DNA from: an uncultured Candidatus Saccharibacteria bacterium
GTDB lineage: Bacteria; Patescibacteriota; Minisyncoccia; Phycocordibacterales; JACOZG01
NCBI GenBank assembly: GCA_964361825.1
Contig: CAYICB010000003.1
Span: 2,643-66,642 of the forward strand
Direction of reading: 5' to 3'
DNA: 64,000 bases
The position numbers and the translations under genes were made by a program. The notes below the pieces were generated by a model. That model did not search any database and had not been told where the DNA came from. It worked only from the letters and a program-made list of their open reading frames with translations. Positions 6,065 through 59,006 of this stretch are shown here, piece by piece (the first letter of the stretch is position 1; the number at the start of each line of letters is the position of its first letter).

Positions 6065-6262
6065 TTATTTTTTTTCGAGAAGGCGATAACGATCTTTAAG
6101 CCAAGCTTTAGTCATTTTCACCGGTTTGCCACTATTAAGAGAAGCCAACAAACTATTTTCGATTTCTCGATGCAGGTGCTGTTTTAAGTCTTCCGAAACT
6201 ACTTTATTTTGCACCCAAGCTTGTGTTTCTTTTGGTAAGGATATTTTTAACGCTGTTTTCAT
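6065..6262 (-). CDS. type II antitoxin, ParD/RHH-like
   Basis: 65 aa; N-terminal KISLPKETQAWV resembles ParD ribbon-helix-helix; 9 nt upstream of the toxin gene. Confidence 0.5.
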   Translation of the reverse strand: MKTALKISLPKETQAWVQNKVVSEDLKQHLHREIENSLLASLNSGKPVKMTKAWLKDRYRLLEKK

Positions 6263-19784: not shown

Positions 19785-20764
19785 TACTCGCCGGTTTGTT
19801 TGGGTCTAATTTCTCCACCTTGATTAATATCGAAGACCTTGGTGCTTTGATAAGCGGGGTCATCATCGTCCGAGCCGGTGAGATCGCTCTCGTCGACATC
19901 AAAAGAGTCATCAACCGTTTGGTCGAAGTGATCACCATCAGAATCTTGGCCGCTAATGACATAAGTGACCAAATAAGTTCCGGGTTCGGTAATATTAGAA
20001 AAGATGCCAGTGTAAACGCCCGGTGAGACCTCGATAAGATTAACAGTAAACACTTGACCACTAGGTGAGGTGATAATAGCGATTACCGAGGCACCGGTAA
20101 TGGGGATCGTGACATTAAGACCAATGGTTTCTTGAATCGTGATGGTGAGGGTAGCATTGCCACCACTGATTGTTTCTTCACTGCCACCGTTGTCGTCCTC
20201 TTCTGAGTCATTGGAACCTGGCGTGCTCTCAATGTCTTCATCGGTCGACACATTAACGGCAAAGTTACTAGAAGTGTCATTGCTATTATTGGTCACCACA
20301 ATCTCAAAATTTCCGCTACTGGTGCCATTGGGGTTAATTTGGAAAAAGGTGGCCACGCGACCGGTGTCGGGATCAGCGATTACGGTTTTGGTAATAGTAA
20401 AATCATTGGGATTAGTGCCCGGAGCGGGGATAATGGTGGGAGTGAGCGCGGCCGAGTCGCTAACGACCTTAATGGTGGTGTTGCCATCTATCCCAAGCGC
20501 TTCTTCATAATGAGCGTTTGGTTGCAGGGCTTGCAGGAGGGCGCCCGAGAGACCGGCTTCCCAGATGAGGCGGCTTTTTTTGGGAGCGGTTTTTTGGAGG
20601 GTTTCTGTTTGGTTTGATTCTGGGGTGGGGAGCGCTTCGCCACCGGTAAGCCACCAGAGGGTTAAACTGGTGGCAATGAGTACCACTAAGCCCAAAACTA
20701 AGGGAACATTAGCTAAACCGTGATTTTTCATCATGCTATAATCATAGCCCATTGTGACCGACAT
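19781..20764 (-). CDS. secreted acidic Ser/Thr/Asp-rich surface protein
   Basis: signal peptide/TM (LVLGLVVLIATS), low-complexity acidic regions. Confidence 0.5.
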   Translation of the reverse strand: MSVTMGYDYSMMKNHGLANVPLVLGLVVLIATSLTLWWLTGGEALPTPESNQTETLQKTAPKKSRLIWEAGLSGALLQALQPNAHYEEALGIDGNTTIKVVSDSAALTPTIIPAPGTNPNDFTITKTVIADPDTGRVATFFQINPNGTSSGNFEIVVTNNSNDTSSNFAVNVSTDEDIESTPGSNDSEEDDNGGSEETISGGNATLTITIQETIGLNVTIPITGASVIAIITSPSGQVFTVNLIEVSPGVYTGIFSNITEPGTYLVTYVISGQDSDGDHFDQTVDDSFDVDESDLTGSDDDDPAYQSTKVFDINQGGEIRPKQTGEY

Positions 20765-22436
20765 CGTAAATCAACTCTTGGCGCGGCGGGGGATAACTAC
20801 GGAAGCGGCGCGCGAGCGCTTTTTGCGACCAAGTTATGAGCGCGATCTCCACGACCCTTTTCTGTTCTCGCAGATGAACCAAGCGGTGACAAGAATTTTG
20901 CACGCGCTAGAGAAAAACGAGAAAATCACGATTTTTGCCGATTACGATGCCGATGGGGTGCCGGCGGCCGTGATTTTGAGTGAATTTTTTAAAAAAGTGG
21001 GTCATGCCAATTTCGACGTTTACATCCCCGACCGGCATGAAGAAGAATTTGGGCTCAAAGAATTTGCGGTGCAAAAAATTGCGGCGACTGATACCAAGCT
21101 CGTGATTACGGTCGATTGCGGCATCACCGATCTGCCCGGCGCGGCCTTACTCGCTTCGCATGCCATTGATCTTATTATTACCGACCACCATTTGCCACCA
21201 GAACAATTGCCGAAAGCAGTAGCGATTATTGATCCCAAGTTGCTCGGCGATGAGTATCCGGAGAAAATGTTGTGTGGCGCTGGGGTGGCTTTCAAACTCG
21301 TGCAGGCTTTGATCAAAATTTTGAGCCAGAGGACCGTCCTTAAGAACCCAAACCCAAGGACGGTCCTCGGGGACATCGCGCCCGGTTGGGAAAAGTGGTT
21401 GCTCGACCTAGTGGCGATTGCGACCGTTAGTGATATGGTGCCGCTCACGGGCGAGAATCGGGCTTTGGTTTACTTCGGGCTTAAGGTCTTGCGTCAGACG
21501 CCGCGACTCGGCTTGCGCGCCCTCGCTCGGGTTTTAAAACTTGATCCACAATATCTCACCGAGGATGATATTGCTTTTTCCATCGGGCCGCGGATTAATT
21601 CGGCGAGCCGAATGACGCATGGTCGCGAGGCATATGAGCTGCTTGCTACAACCGATCTTGCCCGAGCCGAGGCTTTGGCTAAGCATTTAGACTTGAAAAA
21701 TCGCGAACGGCGAGACGAGGTACAGAAAATTATTGATAGTGTGGGGGTGATGACCGAGAGGGCCTTGCCGCCGGTGCTGATCTTTGGCCATGAAGATTGG
21801 TCGCTTGGGGTTTTGGGTTTGGCGGCTTCGAAATTGGTAGAACAATTTTCTCGAACAGTTTTCATCTGGGGGAAAAATGGTAGCGGTTTGATAAAAGGTT
21901 CTTGTCGCGCCGCGCCCGGAGTGAATGTGGTGGCGCTGATGGGTGCCGCTGGGCCAAATATTTTTTCCAACTTCGGTGGCCATGCAGCTTCGGGCGGATT
22001 CTCGCTGGTGCCAGAAAAATTGCCTAAACTCGAAGCTGGTTTGTTGGCGGCTTATGAACTGGCACCGCGAGGCGAGGGGGCGGTGGCGAAGGAGCCCGAT
22101 CTTGACTTACTGCTCGATGAGATCACTGAAGATTTTTGCGCCAACTTGCATCAATTGGCGCCGTTTGGTTTAGGGAATCCGAAGCCGCTACTCTCTTTCC
22201 GCCACGCGCCATTGATGCAGAAGAAAACTTTTGGTTCAACTCATCTCGAATTACAATTTTCTCGCGAGTTCAGCCGACCAATTAAAGCGATTAAATTCTT
22301 CGCCGCAGAATTGGCCAAGAACGATGACTTGGTGCCGGGGGCGATAATTAATTTGCTCGCCAATTTAGAAAAGTCATATTTCCGCGGTCGACCCGAGCTC
22401 CGCTTGCGGATTGTCGATCTCACGCCGGTGCGTTAG
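20754..22436 (+). CDS. recJ: single-stranded-DNA-specific exonuclease RecJ
   Basis: DHH motifs (ADYDADGV, DHH), DHHA1 region. Confidence 0.9.
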   Translation: MTDIVNQLLARRGITTEAARERFLRPSYERDLHDPFLFSQMNQAVTRILHALEKNEKITIFADYDADGVPAAVILSEFFKKVGHANFDVYIPDRHEEEFGLKEFAVQKIAATDTKLVITVDCGITDLPGAALLASHAIDLIITDHHLPPEQLPKAVAIIDPKLLGDEYPEKMLCGAGVAFKLVQALIKILSQRTVLKNPNPRTVLGDIAPGWEKWLLDLVAIATVSDMVPLTGENRALVYFGLKVLRQTPRLGLRALARVLKLDPQYLTEDDIAFSIGPRINSASRMTHGREAYELLATTDLARAEALAKHLDLKNRERRDEVQKIIDSVGVMTERALPPVLIFGHEDWSLGVLGLAASKLVEQFSRTVFIWGKNGSGLIKGSCRAAPGVNVVALMGAAGPNIFSNFGGHAASGGFSLVPEKLPKLEAGLLAAYELAPRGEGAVAKEPDLDLLLDEITEDFCANLHQLAPFGLGNPKPLLSFRHAPLMQKKTFGSTHLELQFSREFSRPIKAIKFFAAELAKNDDLVPGAIINLLANLEKSYFRGRPELRLRIVDLTPVR

Positions 22437-22446
22437 GATTTAGTCT

Positions 22447-23406
22447 ATGATAAGAGATTTTGATCGGTGGAATAAACGGAAAAAAGAAATTCAAACAGCC
22501 CTTCCAAAAGGAAACTTTTTCTATAAAGAAGGTGAAATTTGGTGGTGTGGACTTGGTGTGAATCTTGGAGTGGAAACGGACGGGAAGCATGATAACTTCG
22601 AGCGACCGGTTTTAATTATTAAAGTTTTTAATCGAGAGATGGTTTGGGTTTTGCCAGTGACTAGTGTTTTTCACCAAGCGCCATTTTATTACAAGTTTGA
22701 TCATGGTGGAGAGGATCAGTGGGTGGTCTTATCTCAAATTAGAACAGTAAGTACAAAAAGATTGTTTAGGAAAATCAGGGTATTAGACGAAACTGATTTT
22801 GAAAAAATTAAAGTTTTAGTAATTGATTACCTTAAAAAACGAAACCCCGCCGTGAGGCGGGGAATCTCGGAGCCCGAAGGCAATAATGGTTCTAGTCTAA
22901 TCGATGAGAAAGAGCTTGTCAAGCCGGTTATCCCCAATCAGCCTAAAATTATTCTCTATACCGATGGTGGTTCGCGGGGGAATCCGGGTATCGCTGGGGC
23001 CGGAGCCGTGATTACTGATGAGGCGGGGAAAGTGATCAAAGAAGCGTCGAAGCCGCTTGGGATTACGACCAATAATGAGGCTGAGTATCAAGGGGTAATC
23101 TTGGGTCTCGAGACAACTAAGAAACATTTTGGCCCGTCTATGGGCCGGGCAAGTAAAGAGAAAATTCGCGATTTAGACATTACGCTCAAGCTCGATAGTG
23201 AACTGGTGGCCAAGCAATTGCGGGGCGAATATCAGATTAAAGAAGATAATCTTGGTAAACTCTTCCTCAAAATTTGGAATGCCCGCGTCGCCGACTTCCC
23301 TAAGCTCACCATTACCCATATCCCGCGCGAACAAAACTCCGCCGCCGATTGCCTCGCCAACGAAGCGATGGATGCCCAAGAAAAAGCCCCAAAACCCTTA
23401 TTTTAA
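22447..23406 (+). CDS. fusion protein: N-terminal MazF/PemK-fold domain + C-terminal RNase HI domain
   Basis: N-terminus GEIWWCGLGVNLGVETDG..RPVLII...LSQIRTVSTKRL matches MazF/PemK; C-terminus ILYTDGGSRGNPG..TNNEAEY..D is RNase H. Confidence 0.75.
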   Translation: MIRDFDRWNKRKKEIQTALPKGNFFYKEGEIWWCGLGVNLGVETDGKHDNFERPVLIIKVFNREMVWVLPVTSVFHQAPFYYKFDHGGEDQWVVLSQIRTVSTKRLFRKIRVLDETDFEKIKVLVIDYLKKRNPAVRRGISEPEGNNGSSLIDEKELVKPVIPNQPKIILYTDGGSRGNPGIAGAGAVITDEAGKVIKEASKPLGITTNNEAEYQGVILGLETTKKHFGPSMGRASKEKIRDLDITLKLDSELVAKQLRGEYQIKEDNLGKLFLKIWNARVADFPKLTITHIPREQNSAADCLANEAMDAQEKAPKPLF

Positions 23407-23678
23407 GCCATATTTTAGCCTACTTGACAAATGGCTGCCAACTATGCTAAGCTATTGGGTAGGAAGTGAAGACAGGACCTTGAAAACTGAATAGCGAAGT
23501 ATAGGAAAACAATCGTTGAAAAACGACAATTGTTATTCCTCTTCGTCTCACGGAGGGATACGGGATAAATAACCGTTAAGCCTCGGTGCGACAAGAGGGA
23601 TCGCAAACTTTCGCAATGGGCGAGAGGGTGATCCAAAAGTGAGTTTTTTCCTGAGAAGATCGGGAGAAGGAGATAGTT

Positions 23679-24188
23679 ATGTTTAGCGTTAGTGATCCTT
23701 GCGTCATCGGATTTTATCGGGGAATGGCCATCACCAGCCAGAGCGATCTGGCTGACCAGCCGGAGGGATCGTACGTAAGTACGGTCTACCCGGCTTGGGT
23801 GGCGGCGAGCATGTTGGAAAACATGCTCGGGGCCACTCAGGCGGACCTTCGCCTTGCGGCGAAGGTCAAGGCCGTGGCCCGGCCCCTCACGGAGGAGGAG
23901 CTCGAAGAAATCGGCAACAAGGTTGTTGCCCGACTGAACAACCTTCCCCACATGGAGGTGGGGGAGGTCGAAGACGTGGAGGAGGTCGTCAACATCTTTT
24001 TTGAGGTCGTTGACTTCCTCTCCGTTGCCGGAGAGAGGGAGGCGGTGACGGAGGTCGTACGATTGGCGATGGAGAACGCTCAAAAGGGGTTGTTCTCCCC
24101 AGCCGCCGTTCAGGCGGCGGCAATCGCCGAAAGGGCGACCGATCGGAGGATCTTGGGGATTGTGAAGGAGGTAATCAACAACAATTAG
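23679..24188 (+). CDS. hypothetical acidic protein (GC-rich islet gene A)
   Basis: strong SD GGAGAAGGAG 7 nt upstream; GC-rich codon usage; opposite-strand ORF judged to be a GC artefact. Confidence 0.5.
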   Translation: MFSVSDPCVIGFYRGMAITSQSDLADQPEGSYVSTVYPAWVAASMLENMLGATQADLRLAAKVKAVARPLTEEELEEIGNKVVARLNNLPHMEVGEVEDVEEVVNIFFEVVDFLSVAGEREAVTEVVRLAMENAQKGLFSPAAVQAAAIAERATDRRILGIVKEVINNN

Positions 24189-24203
24189 AAAAAACGAGTT
24201 TCT

Positions 24204-24236
24204 GGAGATTTATCGTTATCAAATCTCCACTTTGTT
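24204..24236 (+). terminator. hairpin GGAGATTT/AAATCTCC + T-rich tail
   Basis: perfect 8-bp stem, 9-nt loop, then ACTTTGTT. Confidence 0.45.
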
Positions 24237-24294
24237 CAGCTAATGACTTGGGTCGTTGGCTGATCGGGTTAACCCAAAGAAAGGTAGTGCGAAC

Positions 24295-24489
24295 ATGATG
24301 TCTGAATCGGATATGAATCGGATCATGAAGAGGGTCGAGGACGACATGAATTTTTTGGCTGGATTACCGGCCAGAAAGGAGGAAGAGGAACGGCTCGGGC
24401 GTCCCTGGGGGGAATGGACCATTCAGGAAATGATGGCATGGATGGACAGGGCTCTCCCCCTCTTTGCGGAAGCGCCACCGCAAAACTAA
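24295..24489 (+). CDS. small hypothetical protein (islet gene B, ~64 aa)
   Basis: ATG with AAAGAAAGG SD-like upstream; the ORF-track TTG start lies further 5'. Confidence 0.4.
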   Translation: MMSESDMNRIMKRVEDDMNFLAGLPARKEEEERLGRPWGEWTIQEMMAWMDRALPLFAEAPPQN

Positions 24490-24614
24490 ATGGCGCAAAA
24501 GGGAACGCGATTCGCTACGGCAATCACGTTTCCCTTCTGATTGAACCCGTAAACATGTGCTTGTGGGTTCAATGGAAGATTTTTTCCCGAGAAGATCGGG
24601 AGAAGGAGATAGTC

Positions 24615-24812
24615 ATGTTTATCGTCACAGTTCATGCGCAAGAAGGAAACGGGGACCATGTGCTTGGAACAAGCGGCGAATTCGCCACTTGTTCCTCGGA
24701 GGTGGCCGTGGCGGGGTTTGCCACGGCCGAGGCTGCCGTTGCCGCTGGAATGGCGGCGGTGAATCGCTTTGGGGCAACCCCCAAAGCGGTCGAGGTCCGC
24801 ACCTCGTTCTAA
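24615..24812 (+). CDS. small hypothetical protein (islet gene C, 65 aa)
   Basis: preceded by a ~40-nt leader near-identical to that of gene A, including GGAGAAGGAG. Confidence 0.5.
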   Translation: MFIVTVHAQEGNGDHVLGTSGEFATCSSEVAVAGFATAEAAVAAGMAAVNRFGATPKAVEVRTSF

Positions 24813-24824
24813 AGCGGTGGGCAC

Positions 24825-24858
24825 AGGAGAAGGCCCAAACAAACTTCTCCTACTTATT
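24825..24858 (+). terminator. hairpin AGGAGAAG/CTTCTCCT
   Basis: 8-bp stem, 11-nt loop after gene C. Confidence 0.4.
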
Positions 24859-24939
24859 GAGTTCATCACAATGGGTGGTGGATTCATGGGTAGAACATTA
24901 AAAATTTAATGGGGCTTCGGCCCCAGAAAGGAAGTGTTT

Positions 24940-25965
24940 ATGACACTTCAGTTTGCAATTCTCGACCCCCGCAACATTCCGACCGCCGCGGAGGCCAACG
25001 ACAAGGTGTTCGCAAATCCGGTTTACGGAATCGAAGTAACGGTGCCCGCGCTCGCAAAGCGCTGCATCGCGAATCTCGACCCGCAACACACCGGTGGCGA
25101 TGCCAATCGCGCGGCCATCGAAGACGCGCTGACGGCCGAGCTCCCGACCGAGGGTTCCACTCTCGCGACGGTTCGCGCCGATCTGGACGCCGTCGGCGCG
25201 ATGGTTGTTTTCGGCCTTAGATTGAGAGGCCGAATGATAGAACCCTCTGCATGGAGGGTTTGTTCAATTTGTGGGGCGGGGCTACAATCTTGCTTTTTTG
25301 TTTGCGGCCACTGCGGTTGGGTGGTTGGGAGCCACTCTAACGAAGCAGTGGCGACCAGATTTCAACAGGTGGCCGCTGCCGACAAGTTCGCGCGTGGTGG
25401 CTGGTTGGGCCCCAAACCGTTACCAACCAAGGAAAACCCTTGGCCGAGCGAGGGGGCAGCGGATTCGACTCAATCGCTCGCGGCAATCGCCGCGGCGGTT
25501 ACGGACTTCAAGGTCCCGATGGCCGATCGCGTCGCCACGATGGAGAAGTGGCTACTGACGGGTGAAGAGCCCAAGCAGTACCGCGACTCCGTCGAGAAGG
25601 AACGGCTCGACATGATCGCTGCCCTCGAAAGCGGAGCGATCAGGTGCGAGACGCGCTCCGGCGGCAAGATCGCGGTCGTCGAGAGCACGCACCGAGCGGC
25701 CACCAGCGTGGGGTACTCACTCGCGCCAGTCGTGGTTGCTCGCAATCCGGCCTTCAAGCTGGGCGGTGGTGAGGCTCACGCGAAGTACACGGTTTGTGCC
25801 TTCGAGGCAGGCAAGTTTGCGGACATCAAGTCCGCGCTTGCCGAGCTCGCGACGATCGAAGCTGGTTGGGGCGGTTCGCCCGTCATCGGTGGTAGCCCCC
25901 AGGGTGTGAGTTCCGCCTTGACGATCGATCAGGTCGTCGAGGTGGTTGAGAAGCATCTTAAGTAA
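24940..25965 (+). CDS. hypothetical 342-aa protein with central Cys cluster (CSICG..CGHCG)
   Basis: SD AGAAAGGAAG; GC-rich; no family recognised. Confidence 0.55.
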   Translation: MTLQFAILDPRNIPTAAEANDKVFANPVYGIEVTVPALAKRCIANLDPQHTGGDANRAAIEDALTAELPTEGSTLATVRADLDAVGAMVVFGLRLRGRMIEPSAWRVCSICGAGLQSCFFVCGHCGWVVGSHSNEAVATRFQQVAAADKFARGGWLGPKPLPTKENPWPSEGAADSTQSLAAIAAAVTDFKVPMADRVATMEKWLLTGEEPKQYRDSVEKERLDMIAALESGAIRCETRSGGKIAVVESTHRAATSVGYSLAPVVVARNPAFKLGGGEAHAKYTVCAFEAGKFADIKSALAELATIEAGWGGSPVIGGSPQGVSSALTIDQVVEVVEKHLK

Positions 25966-26002: not shown

Positions 26003-26036
26003 TTCCGAAAATTGGACAAACAAGCTCTGCTGAAAG
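26003..26036 (+). terminator. rho-independent terminator
   Basis: AGCTCTGC-TGAAAG-GCGGAGCT followed by TTTTTCTTTTTT. Confidence 0.65.
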
Positions 26037-26149
26037 GCGGAGCTTTTTCTTTTTTGCTGGACAAGATTTGGTAAGTGTGCGAGAGTGGGGGCGGAATAGT
26101 ATTGTCTTCGCGAGGCGGAGACTCGCTGGGTTATTGAAAGGAGTGAGCC

Positions 26150-26380
26150 ATGTTAGTGTTATCTAGGAAGCGGGATGAGAGCATTATGATCGGCGACGAT
26201 ATTGAGATTACCGTCGTTGACATCCGTGGCGACAAGGTGCGACTCGGGATCGCGGCACCGCGTCCGGTGCAGGTTCATCGCAAAGAGGTGTATGAAGATA
26301 TCCAACAAGGGCAAATGAAACTGCCCTATATGGATGATCGGCCAGCCAGCAAGAATGGAACAGCCGATTATCAGGTGTGA
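26150..26380 (+). CDS. csrA: carbon storage regulator CsrA
   Basis: [45 protein letters not shown] aligns across the whole CsrA fold. Confidence 0.9.
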
Positions 26381-26411
26381 TATTTGATCGTCGGCAGGAG
26401 GTCGGGGGAGG

Positions 26412-26451
26412 GGGAGCTATTCACCAAGCGGGTAATAGCTTCCCTTTTTTT
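26412..26451 (+). terminator. terminator hairpin GGGAGCTATT/AATAGCTTCCC + T7, overlapping speH stop
   Basis: ~10-bp stem then TTTTTTT. Confidence 0.5.
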
Positions 26452-55857: not shown

Positions 55858-56145
55858 ATTAATTTTTTATTTTGCCAACAAACACAAAAAGCCCACCGCC
55901 AGGCGACAACCTTTCGGTCGTCCACACCTCTTTCGAAGCGTGACCAATCACGGTGAACCTAGACGATGGGTTCTTTACCCGTGATTGGTTTTTTAAGCCA
56001 TGCCCAACTAAACAGTTGGGTTTAGGCCATTATTAAATTGTGCTTACAATTTAGCATTAAATTCGCACAGAGAAAACAACCCGTATCAATTATATGATCG
56101 AGTGGTTTACCATGAGCGAGTTCGTCTTTCAACGAACGAGTCGAA

Positions 56146-56524
56146 TGGAGATGCCGGGAATCGAACCCGGGTGCAGAAAGAGATCTCAAGTAGGTCTACA
56201 AGCGTAGTTGGTTTGGTGTTGTCGGGAGTGGCATAGAAAGCCAACAAAAACGCACACCCCGTAGCTCTAGGTTTTCGTCTCTCGCCTCGAGCGCGGGCGG
56301 GAGCTTATTCCGAATTTATGACACCACTTTGATCTTATCGGAAGTCAGACCAAGTGATGTCGCTTAGGCTAAAGCGTAAGCGAAAGGAAGAGGATATGGC
56401 GAAGCCACACCTTCTCCCTCGTTAGATAAGTTGGCACTTATCAGTGTGCCGCGGTTTTACGAGTGGGCGGCAACTCGGCTTGCATAGCAAGAGAGTGATC
56501 CTTCTGTCGAAGCCAATCATCCCC
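56146..56524 (-). ncRNA. ssrA: tmRNA (SsrA)
   Basis: 5' GGGGATGATTGGCTTCGACAG; 3' T-arm CCCGGGTTCGATTCCCGG + acceptor CATCTCC with G3:U70 (Ala identity); internal frame ends ..PFAYALA-TAA; immediately downstream of smpB. Confidence 0.88.
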
Positions 56525-57026: not shown

Positions 57027-58946
57027 GTGATGAAAAAGATGTCAAAATTGAATAAAACCAGTCCGCGAGGCTTTGGTCAATTTGGTCGCCAAATTGCTTC
57101 CACGGTCTTGATTTTTCTCGTTTTGCTCGGAATCTATTCTGCGGTGACCAGCAATCAGCAAACCGCCAAAGAGCTAACTTTATCAGAATTAGCCCAAGCG
57201 ATTAATCAGGGTGAGGTGGCCAAAATTGTGATTCAAGGCGATGCTTTAGCTGTGACCCTGCAAACCGGGGAAGAGCTTCGGTCGCAAAAAGAGGCCGAAA
57301 CTTCGCTCTCCGAAAGTTTGGCTAATTATGGCGTTTTGCCGACTAGTTTGGGCGGGGTTTCGGTGGCGGTGGCTAATCCCTCGGGCCTTACTTTTTGGTT
57401 GCTCAATTTATTGCCTTTTATTTTACCAGCGATTTTTGTACTTCTGATTTTTTGGTTTATCTCGCGCCAAGTGCGCGGGGCTTCGGTGCAAGCGTTCTCT
57501 TTTGGTCAATCGCGCGCGCGAGTAATTGACCCCAATGATCAGTCGCAGAAAATTACTTTCAAAGATGTGGCTGGCGTAAAGGAGGCCAAAGAAGAATTGT
57601 TAGAAATTGTCGATTTTCTCAAAAGTCCAAAAAAGTTTTTAGACATTGGCGCCAAGATTCCCAAGGGTGTTTTGCTTATTGGTGCGCCGGGGACCGGTAA
57701 AACTTTGTTGGCGCGCGCGGTGGCGGGTGAAGCGGGTGTGCCCTTCTTTTATCTCTCGGGTTCGGAGTTTGTTGAGATGTTTGTAGGCGTGGGCGCTTCG
57801 CGCGTGCGCGACCTCTTCAAAATGGCCAAGAAAACGGCCCCAGCGATTATTTTTATTGATGAAATCGATGCCATCGGTCGTCATCGCGGTGGCGGCATGG
57901 GTGGCGGCAATGATGAGCGCGAGCAAACACTTAATCAAATTCTCGTGGAGATGGATGGCTTCGAGCCTAATGAAAAACTGATTGTAATGGCGGCCACCAA
58001 TCGGCCTGATGTGCTCGATATCGCGCTTTTGCGCCCCGGTCGCTTTGACCGTCGCGTGGTGCTCGATAAGCCGGATCTTAAAGATCGTGAAGAAATTCTT
58101 GGCATTTATGCCCGCAAGAAACCGCTCCACGAGGATGTGAACTTGCGCGTCATTGCTCAACGCACGCCCGGTTTCTCTGGCGCGGATCTCGCTAATGTGA
58201 TGAATGAAGGCGCGATTTTGGCGGCGCGCGAGAATCGCAAGCAGATTACGCAATACGATCTCATTCGCTCGGTGGAGAAGGTAATTCTTGGTCCGGAGCG
58301 CAAGAGTCATATCTTGTCTGAACGAGAAAAGAAAATCACGGCTTACCACGAGATGGGCCATGCGCTCATTGGCTCGGTTTTGCCGCATTCGGATCCGGTG
58401 CACAAGGTCTCGATTATTTCTCGCGGGCATGCGGCGGGCTACACGCTTAAATTGCCGTTCGAAGACCGCAAACTGGAGTCGAAGAAAGAATTCTTGGATG
58501 AAATCGCGGCGCTCCTCGGTGGTTATGCCGCCGAGCAACTGATTTTTGGCGATATTACTACCGGCGCTTCTAATGATCTTGCGGTGGCGACCTATACGGC
58601 GCGTAATATGGTCACCAAGTATGGTATGAGCGAGAAGCTCGGGCCGGTGGCCTTCGACACTGGCGGCGAACGCCACTTGGTGAGCGGCGGGCAACTAGTG
58701 GAGAAGGCGTCATCGGAGGCGGTGTCGGCGCTCATTGATCAAGAAATTTCTAAAATTCTTAGCGAAGGTCTGACGCGCGCTAATCAAGTGCTTACCGATT
58801 ACCGCGCCGCTCTCGACGCGATGTCGGAAGAACTGATTAAAGTCGAAACCATCGATCGCGAAGACTTCGATAAACTGCTTATTTTGAACGGCATCAAGCC
58901 GAAGGAGGATACTAATAAGGTTGTGGATAACTTATCGGCCCGGTAG
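57027..58946 (+). CDS. ftsH: ATP-dependent zinc metalloprotease FtsH
   Basis: two N-terminal TM, AAA Walker A/B, SRH, HEMGH zinc site. Confidence 0.95.
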
Positions 58947-59006
58947 GATTCGAACCTACAACCAGCCGTGTATAAGACGGCGGCTCCACCATTGAGCTAC
59001 GGGCCG
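58935..59006 (-). tRNA. tRNA, anticodon UAU (Ile, AUA-decoding), no encoded CCA
   Basis: cloverleaf: acceptor CGGCCCG/CGGGCCG, D GCTC..GAGC, anticodon stem GCCGT/ACGGC with loop CTTATAC, T-arm GTAGG-TTCGAAT-CCTAC; overlaps ftsH stop by ~11 nt on the opposite strand. Confidence 0.7.

What the first reader, a model, noticed from the sequence alone, without database searches (positions are those of the whole stretch)
23644..23686. Duplicated ~40-nt leader with tandem GGA motifs in front of islet genes A and C (second copy 24580-24622)
The sequences TTTTTTCCTGAGAAGATCGGGAGAAGGAGATAGTTATGTTTA (23644-23686) and TTTTTTCCCGAGAAGATCGGGAGAAGGAGATAGTCATGTTTA (24580-24622) are near-identical, although the proteins they start diverge after MF-V. 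The leader carries GGA at least twice (CGGGAGAAGGAGA), overlapping the SD, which is the architecture of CsrA binding sites. The second copy sits directly after a perfect 8-bp hairpin (TTGAACCC..GGGTTCAA, 24541-24572). With csrA about 1.5 kb downstream, this may be a self-contained CsrA-regulated module. Alternatively it is a recently duplicated translation-initiation region.
Basis: seen in the sequence. Interest (0 to 1): 0.7.

Follow-up and report, generated by a model that had tools for sequence, protein, structure and literature searches.

The report
Duplicated Shine-Dalgarno-masking hairpin leader
Two unrelated orphan genes in a foreign gene islet of a groundwater Patescibacteria genome begin with the same 46-base ribosome-binding module, in which a run of U's folds back onto the ribosome-binding site; it looks like an ordinary translation-gating hairpin of the 'fourU' type, not a docking site for the nearby CsrA regulator.

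Summary
A 46-nt direct repeat (23644-23689 and 24580-24625, 43/46 identical) heads ORFan genes A and C, occurs nowhere else in the window, and was found in the public collections only in the same organism.

The repeat is a complete translation-initiation module. Its 5' edge is the base of an 11-bp sense-strand RNA hairpin (UUUUUUCCYGA-GAAGA-UCGGGAGAAGG, -11 and -13 kcal/mol). The U-run pairs with the first four bases of a strong SD (AAGGAGA). The one stem difference between the copies keeps the pair (C-G to U-G).

The "tandem GGA" is a by-product of this design. GGA #1 is the complement of UCC in the stem and is never single-stranded. GGA #2 is the SD itself. They lie 6 nt apart, the loop has no GGA, and GGA counts match composition.

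The same architecture (U4, a variable GC stem, U4 paired to AAGG or AGGA of the SD) heads genes beside homologues of islet gene D in unrelated contigs: 7 sites against 0.1 expected. Those loci carry no csrA.

Best reading: a fourU-type SD-masking hairpin module, copied within a horizontally acquired islet. CsrA control is not excluded but has no specific support. This is a new member of a known kind, of modest interest.

The parts
23644..23689 (+). Leader repeat copy 1: hairpin, SD, 5-nt spacer, ATG and codons 2-4 of gene A
23644..23670 (+). Hairpin 1. 5' arm 23644-23654 (UUUUUUCCUGA), loop 23655-23659 (GAAGA), 3' arm 23660-23670 (UCGGGAGAAGG). -11.0 kcal/mol at 37 C and -17.7 at 10 C. The minus-strand RNA folds at only -2.7.
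23667..23673 (+). SD AAGGAGA of gene A. Its first four bases (23667-23670) pair with the U-run. The start codon is at 23679-23681.
23679..24188 (+). Gene A, 169 aa, acidic ORFan. Only itself was found among 1.84 billion representative proteins. GC by codon position 0.64/0.38/0.74 supports this frame.
24580..24625 (+). Leader repeat copy 2: hairpin, SD, spacer, ATG and codons 2-4 of gene C
24580..24606 (+). Hairpin 2. 5' arm 24580-24590 (UUUUUUCCCGA), loop 24591-24595, 3' arm 24596-24606. -13.2 kcal/mol at 37 C and -20.2 at 10 C.
24603..24609 (+). SD AAGGAGA of gene C. The start codon is at 24615-24617.
24615..24812 (+). Gene C, 65 aa. Public gene calls use an upstream in-frame ATG at 24438 (124 aa) that reads through the leader. 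The duplicated SD and ATG argue for the 65-aa form.
24534..24578 (+). 18-bp hairpin after gene B (-19.4 kcal/mol, z -4.9). It ends 1 nt before the U6 run of copy 2, so hairpin plus A plus U6 looks like an intrinsic terminator or a processing/stabilising hairpin.
23598..23634 (+). Stable hairpin (-20.1 kcal/mol, z -3.6) that ends 9 nt upstream of copy 1. Its 5' arm belongs to a block (CAAGAGGGATCGCAAA) shared with the D leader of locus L019.
23424..23453 (+). Promoter-like site read by eye: TTGACA, 15 nt, TGC, TAAGCT (extended -10). It was not called by the consensus scan. It would give gene A a 5' UTR of about 220 nt.
   Evidence: sequence; not listed
23480..23610 (+). Part of the 5' UTR of A that is homologous to the leader driving the D homologue in L019 (blocks ATTGTTATTCCTCTTCG and CAAGAGGGATCGCAAA). 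In the window the 46-nt module stands where L019 has its own TIR.
24295..24489 (+). Gene B, 64 aa, no family match, with its own different SD context
24940..25965 (+). Gene D, 341 aa, the conserved core of the islet. More than 440 Patescibacteria homologues. DHH/DHHA1 fold.
26150..26380 (+). csrA, 76 aa, in the same acquired islet. It follows a terminator-like hairpin at 26022-26045 and is followed by another at about 26404-26451.

Best explanation
The 46-nt repeat is a portable translation-initiation module. It consists of a sense-strand RNA hairpin, a strong SD (AAGGAGA), a 5-nt spacer and the AUG with the first codons.

In the hairpin, a run of U's followed by CCYGA pairs with UCGGGAGAAGG, so the U's mask the 5' half of the SD. 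One copy was pasted in front of a second, unrelated gene inside a horizontally acquired islet.

Shown here:
- the repeat, its sharp edges and its uniqueness;
- the predicted strand-specific hairpin and its overlap with the SD;
- recurrence of the same architecture, with different stems, at genes next to D homologues elsewhere;
- the foreign, SD-rich nature of the islet in an SD-poor genome.

Inferred:
- the hairpin gates 30S binding, as in a fourU-type element, so A and C are translated at a low, co-ordinated level;
- translation rises when the weak U:A and U:G base of the stem frays (through warmth, a helicase, S1 or a trans factor);
- the tandem GGA is a consequence of anti-SD pairing, not a protein site.
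For: Repeat and uniqueness. Only self matches were found in the genome, metagenome and viral scans.

Hairpin:
- 11 bp; -11.0 and -13.2 kcal/mol alone; z -3.3 and -3.6 for the 46-mers.
- It forms in every sequence context tested. The SD bases AAGG are paired with probability 0.94 or more at 10 C and 0.53-0.99 at 37 C in five of the six context folds (A at -35/+11, -60/+30 and -120/+40; C at -35/+11 and -120/+40). In the C -60/+30 context it is 0.69-0.85 at 10 C.
- It depends on 3-4 G-U pairs, so it is specific to the plus-strand RNA. The minus-strand RNA folds at -2.7 and -8.9, and DNA at -2.8 and -6.0.
- The 5' edge of the repeat is exactly the base of the stem.
- The only stem difference between the copies is C-G to U-G, which preserves the pair.

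Class recurrence:
- A descriptor scan (U4, a GC-containing stem, a loop, the complementary arm, four purines that pair the U4 and overlap an SD, then a start codon) found 7 distinct sites in 192 kb, against 0.1 expected.
- Five of the seven are annotated gene starts that are a D homologue or its immediate neighbour: window A and C; L006 g1 and g3 (UUUUCCCCGC/GCGGGGAAGG, again duplicated before two different genes); and the D start in L007 (UUUUCCUG/CAGGAGGA).
- None of those loci carries csrA.

Islet status:
- The closest relative keeps the backbone RecJ, RNase H ... ComEC, S12, S7, EF-G but lacks A-D and csrA.
- GC is 0.55-0.65 in the islet against about 0.47-0.50 outside it.
- Host housekeeping genes lack an SD, whereas A, B, C, D and csrA have SD-like purine-rich motifs, canonical in A, C and csrA.

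Definition: in fourU elements four consecutive U's pair with the SD in a stem (PMC10586365, PMC3185406).
Against: - Everything about function is in silico. There are no expression, probing or 5'-end data.
- Only two copies exist, with three differences, so the pair-preserving change has no statistical weight.
- A recent 46-nt copy event would look identical whether or not the hairpin matters.
- The 3' half of the SD (GAGA) and the AUG of gene A stay largely accessible. A hairpin just upstream of an SD can be neutral or even stimulatory, so the direction of the effect is uncertain.
- The upper stem (CCYGA/UCGGG) is much more stable than classical thermometers. The organism lives in cold, thermally stable groundwater, which makes a genuine temperature-sensing role doubtful.
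- The recurrence in other loci was found by a search that required the architecture, and within-locus duplicates reduce it to about three independent lineages.
- The covariance model links the loci only weakly (L006 21 and 13 bits, L007 11 bits), so common descent of the modules is unproven.
Confidence: 0.55

Rival explanations
1. CsrA operator. The islet-encoded CsrA binds the GGA motifs of both leaders and represses, or by opening the hairpin activates, translation of A and C. This would be a self-contained post-transcriptional module.
For: - A bona fide csrA with the conserved N-terminus and VHR motif lies in the same acquired islet, 1.5 kb downstream.
- csrA paralogues carried on mobile elements have precedent in Legionella ICEs (PMC4471563).
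- Two unrelated genes share an identical leader, as expected for a common operator.
- GGA #2, in the SD, is partly accessible, and single SD-overlapping sites are known.
- CsrA-family proteins are known to act on SD:anti-SD hairpins (psl, phz2; PMC7652899).
Against: - GGA #1 is fully base-paired, and the loop is GAAGA, not GGA.
- The GGAs are 6 nt apart, against the 10-63 nt needed for bridging.
- The stem is 11 bp, against 4 bp or fewer in SELEX ligands, and there is no match to RUACARGGAUGU beyond GGA.
- In psl the protein binds a GGA in the loop, which is absent here.
- GGA counts are as expected from composition.
- The same hairpin class occurs at D-islet genes in loci without csrA, and csrA is absent from all other D loci fetched.
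- csrA's own leader shows a more classical layout: the SD GGA in a GAAAGG loop of a weak hairpin, plus a GGA 23 nt upstream. The A and C leaders do not.
Confidence: 0.12
2. Functionally neutral recent copy. A short-patch recombination or illegitimate duplication placed an existing RBS in front of a second gene. The hairpin is incidental, and the module does nothing beyond supplying an SD and an AUG.
For: - There are only two copies, 93% identical, with sharp edges and unrelated flanks.
- The repeat runs 11 nt into the coding sequence, which a pure regulatory element need not do.
- A and C are ORFans, and A has no detectable relatives.
- The leader is not seen outside this organism.
Against: - The 5' edge coincides with the base of a hairpin that is strand-specific and well above shuffled expectation.
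- The same U4-stem-SD design recurs with different stem sequences at D-islet genes elsewhere, 7 sites against 0.1 expected. Chance does not explain that.
Confidence: 0.2
3. DNA-level element. The direct repeats are recombination or cassette boundaries (att-like or Xer/dif-like) flanking the A-B segment, or an operator for a DNA-binding protein.
For: - Two direct repeats bracket a 936-bp segment holding two ORFans.
- The islet lies in a variable slot.
- D-family loci show gene-cassette-like turnover next to an identical D gene.
- The Hainich R2 assembly breaks at 24640-24643, just after copy 2.
Against: - As DNA the palindrome is poor (-2.8 and -6.0 kcal/mol), and in copy 1 the complementary strand loses it. 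The stem needs G-U pairs.
- No recombinase is in the islet.
- The repeat is positioned precisely as SD plus AUG for both genes.
- The contig break is equally explained by 4x coverage.
Confidence: 0.05
4. Terminator or attenuator use of the U-run. At copy 2 the 18-bp hairpin at 24534-24578 followed by A and U6 terminates the A-B transcript. The U-run then either serves as the terminator tract or, in read-through RNA, as the anti-SD.
For: The hairpin is -19.4 kcal/mol (z -4.9) and ends 1 nt before the U6 run.
Against: - At copy 1 the upstream hairpin ends 9 nt before the U-run, so this cannot explain the shared module.
- The consensus terminator scan did not list the site.
- No promoter for C is evident downstream.
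Confidence: 0.08

Closest known systems
FourU-type RNA thermometers (Salmonella agsA, SPbeta blyA and others)
   Same: - Consecutive U's in the 5' arm of a hairpin pair with the purines of the SD (here U4:AAGG; in L007 U4:AGGA, the canonical pairing).
- The element lies immediately upstream of the start codon.
- The SD-masking pairs are weak A-U and G-U pairs at the base of the stem.
   Different: - The upper stem is GC-rich and stable (-11 to -13 kcal/mol).
- Only half of the SD is masked.
- There was no Rfam match.
- The host is a cold-groundwater Patescibacteria bacterium, in which temperature sensing is not an obvious need.
- Thermal response is untested.
- The module is duplicated together with the first codons.
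CsrA/RsmA binding sites (glgC and hcnA type; psl SD:anti-SD hairpin type)
   Same: - The leader has GGA motifs, one of them overlapping the SD.
- A csrA gene is nearby.
- The psl precedent involves an SD:anti-SD hairpin.
   Different: - GGA is not in a loop.
- The motifs are 6 nt apart, too close for a dimer to bridge.
- The stem is long and stable.
- The flanking consensus is absent.
- The module class occurs without csrA nearby.
Mobile-element-borne CsrA paralogues (Legionella ICE csrA-like genes)
   Same: csrA sits in a horizontally acquired islet. Homologues of the islet's core gene D are found next to type IV secretion genes in other contigs (L007).
   Different: - There is no evidence that this CsrA targets islet genes.
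- csrA is not a conserved part of D islets.
- No T4SS or integrase lies in the window islet.
Repeated leader and hammerhead units in D-family loci of other Patescibacteria (L006, L020-L022, L030)
   Same: - Different genes of one locus carry the same leader.
- In L006 the leader ends in the same U4-stem-SD hairpin.
- The window's 5' UTR of A is homologous to a D leader (L019).
   Different: - The window repeat is only 46 nt, against about 190 nt in L006.
- No hammerhead ribozyme was detected in the window islet.

Membership tests
fourU-type SD-masking hairpin (RNA thermometer class) | Four or more consecutive U's predicted to pair with the SD in a stem | tested here: met
   U23644-23647 and U24580-24583 pair with AAGG of AAGGAGA. 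The paired probability is 0.94 or more at 10 C in five of the six context folds (0.69-0.85 in the C -60/+30 fold) and 0.53-0.99 at 37 C. Definition from PMC10586365 and PMC3185406.
fourU-type SD-masking hairpin (RNA thermometer class) | Located in the 5' UTR directly upstream of the regulated start codon, on the sense strand | tested here: met
   The stem ends 8 nt before the AUG. The fold is specific to plus-strand RNA.
fourU-type SD-masking hairpin (RNA thermometer class) | SD released by melting within the organism's physiological temperature range | tested here: inconclusive
   In silico, pairing of the outermost SD base falls from 0.97 (10 C) to 0.53 (37 C) and 0.16-0.32 (45-55 C). The inner pairs stay at 0.8 or more, and the organism's temperature range is unknown.
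fourU-type SD-masking hairpin (RNA thermometer class) | Temperature-dependent translation shown experimentally | not testable with these tools
   Needs reporter assays or toeprinting.
fourU-type SD-masking hairpin (RNA thermometer class) | Match to a curated thermometer model | tested here: not met
   No Rfam family of any kind matched 23400-24700 at E of 1 or less. These elements have little sequence conservation, so this is weak evidence.
CsrA/RsmA binding site | GGA core present | tested here: met
   GGA at 23663 and 23669, and at 24599 and 24605. This is trivially expected from an AAGGAG SD and from the complement of UCC.
CsrA/RsmA binding site | GGA single-stranded, typically in the loop of a short (4 bp or fewer) hairpin | tested here: not met
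   GGA #1 has unpaired probability 0.00. GGA #2 has 0.19, 0.44 and 0.77 for its three bases. The loop is GAAGA and the stem is 11 bp. Rule from PMC7652899.
CsrA/RsmA binding site | Two sites spaced 10-63 nt apart for dimer bridging | tested here: not met
   Spacing is 6 nt, centre to centre. Rule. One known CsrA target mRNA has a single binding site, so this lowers the claim without excluding it.
CsrA/RsmA binding site | Flanking consensus RUACARGGAUGU | tested here: not met
   AGAUCGGGAGAA and GAGAAGGAGAUA match the consensus essentially only at RGGA (sequence; consensus).
CsrA/RsmA binding site | GGA enrichment of the target leader or transcript beyond composition | tested here: not met
   Gene A has 21 against 19.9 +/- 2.1 expected. 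The 5' UTR has 9 against 6.2 +/- 2.0 (P=0.12). The B-C spacer gives P=0.23.
CsrA/RsmA binding site | Co-occurrence of the element with csrA across loci | tested here: not met
   Hairpin-class members in L006 and L007 have no csrA within the contigs, and none of the 29 other D loci carries csrA. The contigs are partial, so csrA elsewhere in those genomes is not excluded.
CsrA/RsmA binding site | Physical binding by CsrA | not testable with these tools
   Needs a gel shift or footprint.
CsrA protein family (gene 26150-26380) | Passes curated family thresholds and keeps the RNA-binding residues | tested here: met
   Pfam PF02599, 94.7 bits against 27. NCBIfam NF002469, 96.9 against 73, and TIGR00202, 86.5 against 70.1. 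The N-terminal MLVLSRK and the VHRKEVY motif (equivalent to E. coli L4 and R44, by my own knowledge) are visible in the translation.

The most novel reading that the evidence does not exclude
The leader is one visible piece of an undescribed, modular RNA-level expression system in Patescibacteria. Variable, mostly ORFan genes cluster around a conserved DHH/DHHA1-fold gene (D). Each would be equipped from a shared kit: repeated 5' leaders, hammerhead ribozymes that could cut the operon into units, and fourU-type SD-masking hairpins. That kit would allow newly captured genes to be expressed, and jointly gated, in hosts whose own genes largely lack SDs. In this genome the kit would be combined with an islet-borne CsrA.
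Probability: 0.25. Interest if true: 0.6.

Novelty: new member of a known kind. Interest (0 to 1): 0.3.

Why it matters
Taken alone, the finding is a routine cis-acting translation element. SD-masking hairpins with U-runs are well known, and the CsrA idea does not hold up to the checks that can be run.

Three things give it modest value:
- It corrects the likely start of gene C (65 aa, not the 124 aa of the public calls).
- It shows that a horizontally acquired islet brings strong SDs with built-in masking hairpins into a Patescibacteria genome whose housekeeping genes are largely SD-less. This bears on how foreign genes are translated in these reduced organisms.
- It led to related loci in which the same hairpin design, long repeated leaders and hammerhead ribozymes flank a conserved DHH-fold gene with hypervariable neighbours. 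That organisation may deserve a study of its own.

Tried and rejected
1. Leader elsewhere. A 20-mer scan of 185,579 genomes gave four hits with unrelated flanks, which are chance. Hairpin-pattern scans of metagenomes and IMG/VR gave only the same Hainich contig plus one unrelated phage gene TIR (L013/L015) with a similar hairpin. BLASTN of 23400-24940 against phages and plasmids found nothing.

2. Longer homology between the two leaders. MAFFT suggested an upstream block (CAAGAGGGATCGC... against CAAAAGGGAACGC...), but local-alignment scores are at chance (P=0.20). I did not count it, although both blocks resemble D-leader motifs in other loci.

3. A and C as diverged paralogues. No similarity was found.

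4. GGA enrichment as a CsrA signature. The islet holds the densest GGA windows of the plus strand, but synonymous-codon and composition shuffles explain them.

5. Known RNA families. There was no Rfam hit in the leaders. A weak CsrC-like hit (21.6 bits against a gathering score of 61) lies over the csrA coding sequence and terminator, and I treat it as spurious.

6. Function of A, B and C. Pfam, PHROGs, NCBIfam and PADLOC gave nothing at or below E 0.05, only marginal PHROGs matches (E 0.06-0.08) to families of unknown function. A has no relatives in two searches. C is not on record under the 65-aa form.

7. csrA as a conserved partner of D or of the hairpin. Rejected.

8. Covariance model from the two copies. 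It is too sequence-specific to unite the class: L006 scores 21 and 13 bits and L007 scores 11 bits. Its third-best window hit (6067-6097) is a U-run without a hairpin or start codon.

9. My first ad hoc gene caller mis-set many starts. I replaced it with public gene calls.
Full report
**1. Observation**

The two sequences are present as described. The repeat finder defines a 46-nt direct repeat at 23644-23689 and 24580-24625 with 43/46 identities. The 25-nt core has no third match in the window with up to three mismatches, against 0 expected. A covariance model built from the two copies scores 68 bits on them and at most 17 bits elsewhere in the window.

The edges are sharp. Local alignments of the upstream and downstream flanks are at chance (P=0.20 and 0.42), and proteins A and C share nothing. 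The sequence is reproduced in independent assemblies of two Hainich groundwater replicates, so it is not an assembly artefact. The window is a Patescibacteria MAG contig.

**2. Anatomy**

Each copy runs from -35 to +11 relative to an ATG. The first 27 nt fold as an 11-bp hairpin: UUUUUUCCYGA, loop GAAGA, UCGGGAGAAGG.
- Alone it is worth -11.0 (A) and -13.2 (C) kcal/mol at 37 C, and -17.7 and -20.2 at 10 C.
- The 46-mers have z-scores of -3.3 and -3.6 against dinucleotide shuffles.
- The hairpin persists in all sequence contexts tried (-35/+11, -60/+30, -120/+40).
- The 3' arm ends in AAGG, the first four bases of the SD AAGGAGA (23667-23673 and 24603-24609), which lies 5 nt before the ATG. These four bases are predicted to be paired with probability 0.94 or more at 10 C in five of the six context folds (0.69-0.85 for C at -60/+30), and 0.53-0.99 at 37 C.
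- The stem needs three or four G-U pairs. It therefore exists only in the plus-strand RNA: the complementary RNA gives -2.7 and -8.9 kcal/mol, and DNA gives -2.8 and -6.0.
- The 5' edge of the repeat is exactly the first U of the stem.
- The single stem difference between the copies (23652 U, 24588 C) changes U-G to C-G and keeps the pair. With only three differences this carries no statistical weight.

Both copies are preceded by an unrelated stable hairpin: 23598-23634 at -20.1 kcal/mol, and 24534-24578 at -19.4.

**3. The tandem GGA and CsrA**

GGA #1 (23663, 24599) is the complement of the UCC in the 5' arm and has an unpaired probability of 0.00. GGA #2 (23669, 24605) is the SD itself, with unpaired probabilities of 0.19, 0.44 and 0.77 for its three bases. 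The loop has no GGA.

The CsrA review PMC7652899 gives these rules:
- High-affinity sites are GGA in a hexaloop on stems of four or fewer base pairs, with the consensus RUACARGGAUGU.
- A dimer bridges sites 10-63 nt apart.
- In the psl SD:anti-SD case the protein binds a GGA in the loop.

The A and C leaders fit none of these: 6-nt spacing, an 11-bp stem, and only the GGA core matching.

The plus strand of the islet holds the most GGA-dense windows of the 64 kb. Synonymous-codon shuffles of A and B and composition shuffles of the spacers reproduce the counts (A has 21 against 19.9 +/- 2.1; the 5' UTR gives P=0.12).

csrA itself is genuine. Its own leader looks more like a classical CsrA target: the SD GGA sits in a GAAAGG loop of a weak hairpin, with another GGA 23 nt upstream.

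**4. Context**

The order of genes is:
- RecJ (20754-22436);
- a MazF-RNase H fusion (22447-23406);
- a 270-nt spacer with a promoter-like site;
- A (169 aa), B (64 aa), C (65 aa) and D (341 aa);
- a terminator-like hairpin;
- csrA and another terminator-like hairpin;
- then, on the minus strand, an AdoMet decarboxylase-like gene, followed by ComEC.

The closest relative found (ComEC 49% identical) keeps RecJ, RNase H ... decarboxylase, ComEC, beta-lactamase-fold, M50, S12, S7 and EF-G, but has other genes in place of A-D and csrA. GC rises to 0.55-0.65 across A-D.

Public gene calls show that S12, S7, EF-G, EF-Tu and other host genes have no recognisable SD, whereas A, C and csrA have AAGGAG-type SDs and B and D weaker ones. 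So the islet is foreign, the leader is not a generic SD context, and csrA arrived in the same variable slot.

On the individual genes:
- A is an ORFan in two independent searches.
- A, B and C match no family.
- D has more than 440 homologues in Patescibacteria at 57-74% identity among the 120 listed.
- D gives a confident AlphaFold model (pLDDT 85.5).

**5. Related loci**

D homologues sit in many contexts, and neither the 46-mer, A, B, C nor csrA accompanies them. However, a scan for SDs paired to U-runs at ORF starts picked out genes next to D in other contigs.
- In L006 (D 74% identical) the genes on either side of D start with CAUUUUCCCCGC-AGA-GCGGGGAAGGAGAAUUGAAAUG and CAUUUUCCCCGC-UGAU-GCGGGGAAGGAGAAAAGAAUG.
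- In L007, L008 and L009, D itself starts with UUUUUUCCUG-CGAAA-CAGGAGGAUGACUCAUG.

A stricter descriptor was then run. It required U4; a stem of 3-7 bp with at least three G-C pairs; a loop of 3-6 nt; four purines that pair the U4 and overlap an SD; and a start codon 3-13 nt later.
- It found 7 distinct sites in 192 kb of non-redundant sequence, on both strands, against 0.1 expected in composition-preserving local shuffles.
- Five of the seven are annotated gene starts that are a D homologue or its immediate neighbour.
- The stems differ (CCYGA/UCGGG, CCCCGC/GCGGGG, CCUG/CAGG), but the U4:AAGG or U4:AGGA pairing to the SD is constant. That pairing is the defining feature of fourU elements (PMC10586365, PMC3185406).

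Because the search demanded pairing, the stem differences are not independent covariation evidence. The enrichment and its location are. Within-locus duplicates reduce the sample to about three lineages, and the two-sequence covariance model links them only weakly.

Duplicated leaders appear to be a habit of these loci.
- L006 repeats about 190 nt of leader before two different genes (blocks of 61 nt at 93% and 42 nt at 98%), plus a 115-nt hammerhead unit.
- The window's own 5' UTR of A (about 23480-23610) is homologous to the leader that drives D in L019. In the window, a D-type leader therefore now ends in the 46-nt module and drives an ORFan.

**6. Mechanism**

Shown:
- a strand-specific hairpin whose U-run covers half of a strong SD;
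- its copying, together with the start codon, to two unrelated genes of a foreign islet;
- recurrence of the same design at genes of related islets without csrA.

Inferred:
- The hairpin competes with 30S binding and sets a low, common translation level for A and C.
- The weak U-A and U-G base is the part that must fray. Heat, a helicase, S1 or a trans-acting factor could do this.

I put this reading at about 0.55. A functionally neutral recent copy is at about 0.2, CsrA control at about 0.12, terminator or attenuator use of the U-run at about 0.08, and a DNA-level recombination site at about 0.05. The direction of the effect (repression rather than neutral or stimulatory) and any temperature dependence are untested. 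A true thermosensor role is doubtful for a cold-groundwater organism.

**7. Comparison and novelty**

The element works like a fourU-type SD-masking hairpin and meets the structural definition, but its thermal behaviour is unknown. It does not meet the defining features of a CsrA site apart from the trivial GGA. Islet-borne csrA has a precedent in Legionella ICEs (PMC4471563), but nothing ties this CsrA to these leaders.

Verdict: a new member of a known kind, and an ordinary finding in itself (interest 0.3). The more interesting lead is the wider organisation seen in related loci, where repeated leaders, hammerhead ribozymes and fourU-type hairpins surround a conserved DHH-fold gene with variable neighbours.

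Noticed in passing
L006:878-962 and 1993-2083; L020:1235-1290; L021:1639-1686; L030:1457-1511; L022 about 2790-2850; L019:8377-8431; L032:5099-5143: Hammerhead ribozyme-like elements (intact CUGAUGAG...CGAAAC cores) lie in the spacers just upstream or downstream of D homologues. Rfam Hammerhead_3 scores up to 46.1 bits against a gathering score of 48.5 (E 5e-7). None was detected in the window islet.
   Followed up: partly
L022-L031 (identical D protein P0035), spacer of about 287 nt upstream of D: The same D protein is preceded by different upstream genes (530, 499, 431+95, 347 and 307 aa) at a constant distance. The spacer is conserved: hammerhead, a long hairpin, GGGAACGC..CGCUCACGG, then the SD. 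This looks like a hypervariable gene slot plus a conserved structured leader for a DHH-family gene.
   Followed up: partly
[not shown]
   Followed up: partly
L006:190-378 and 2084-2272: About 190 nt of 5' leader is repeated (61 nt at 93% plus 42 nt at 98%, then the U4 hairpin) in front of two unrelated genes flanking D. After each hammerhead, and after the promoter, the RNA starts with UUGUUCUUUGAAGU.
   Followed up: partly
window 23480-23610 against L019:5800-5975: The 5' UTR of gene A shares blocks (ATTGTTATTCCTCTTCG, CAAGAGGGATCGCAAA) with the leader that directly drives the D homologue in L019. This suggests the window islet is a rearranged D locus.
   Followed up: partly
window 28549, 30281, 30707, 31202 and 34667 (gene starts): Housekeeping genes (beta-lactamase-fold, S12, S7, EF-G, EF-Tu) have A/U-rich leaders without a recognisable SD, while all islet genes have purine-rich SD-like motifs (canonical in A, C and csrA, weaker in B and D). 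RecJ also has far fewer GGA than synonymous shuffles predict (15 against 28 +/- 3.6).
   Followed up: partly
window 24438-24812 against 24615-24812: Public gene calls give C as 124 aa from ATG 24438. That form overlaps B by 52 nt and translates the leader. The duplicated SD and ATG module argues for the 65-aa form.
   Followed up: partly
window 26100-26152: csrA's own leader places its SD GGA in the GAAAGG loop of a weak hairpin, with another GGA 23 nt upstream at 26117. This is a more classical CsrA-site layout and hints at autoregulation.
   Followed up: partly
window 22447-23406: A single ORF fuses a PemK/MazF-like toxin domain (residues 27-122) to an RNase H domain (residues 167-307). In the closest relative (L018) the RNase H is a stand-alone 150-aa protein, 69% identical.
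   Followed up: partly
window 55905-56028, 56143-56524 and 58935-59006 (all minus strand): A LOOT RNA (Rfam RF03000, 92.7 bits) lies next to the tmRNA gene. Nearby is a tRNA-Ile with anticodon TAT.
   Followed up: no
L013:4950-4976(-) and L015:5043-5069(-): A phage gene (N-terminus MTDEEKKALAGKEAEQ..., unannotated; I guess a scaffold protein, untested) is preceded by UUUUCCGGA-AAGAU-UCCGGAGAAGGAGG. The hairpin logic is the same, the flanks are unrelated, and the start codon lies 13-14 nt after the SD.
   Followed up: partly
window 24640-24643: The Hainich R2 assembly breaks into two contigs (L001 ends at 24643, L017 starts at 24640) about 15 nt after leader copy 2. This could reflect repeat-induced graph branching, strain variation or simply 4x coverage.
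   Followed up: no
L007:7033-7537(-) and L008:464-968(-): In these contigs the D homologue with the fourU-type TIR lies directly next to the RNase P RNA gene, and in L007 downstream of VirB4/TrwB-like type IV secretion genes.
   Followed up: no
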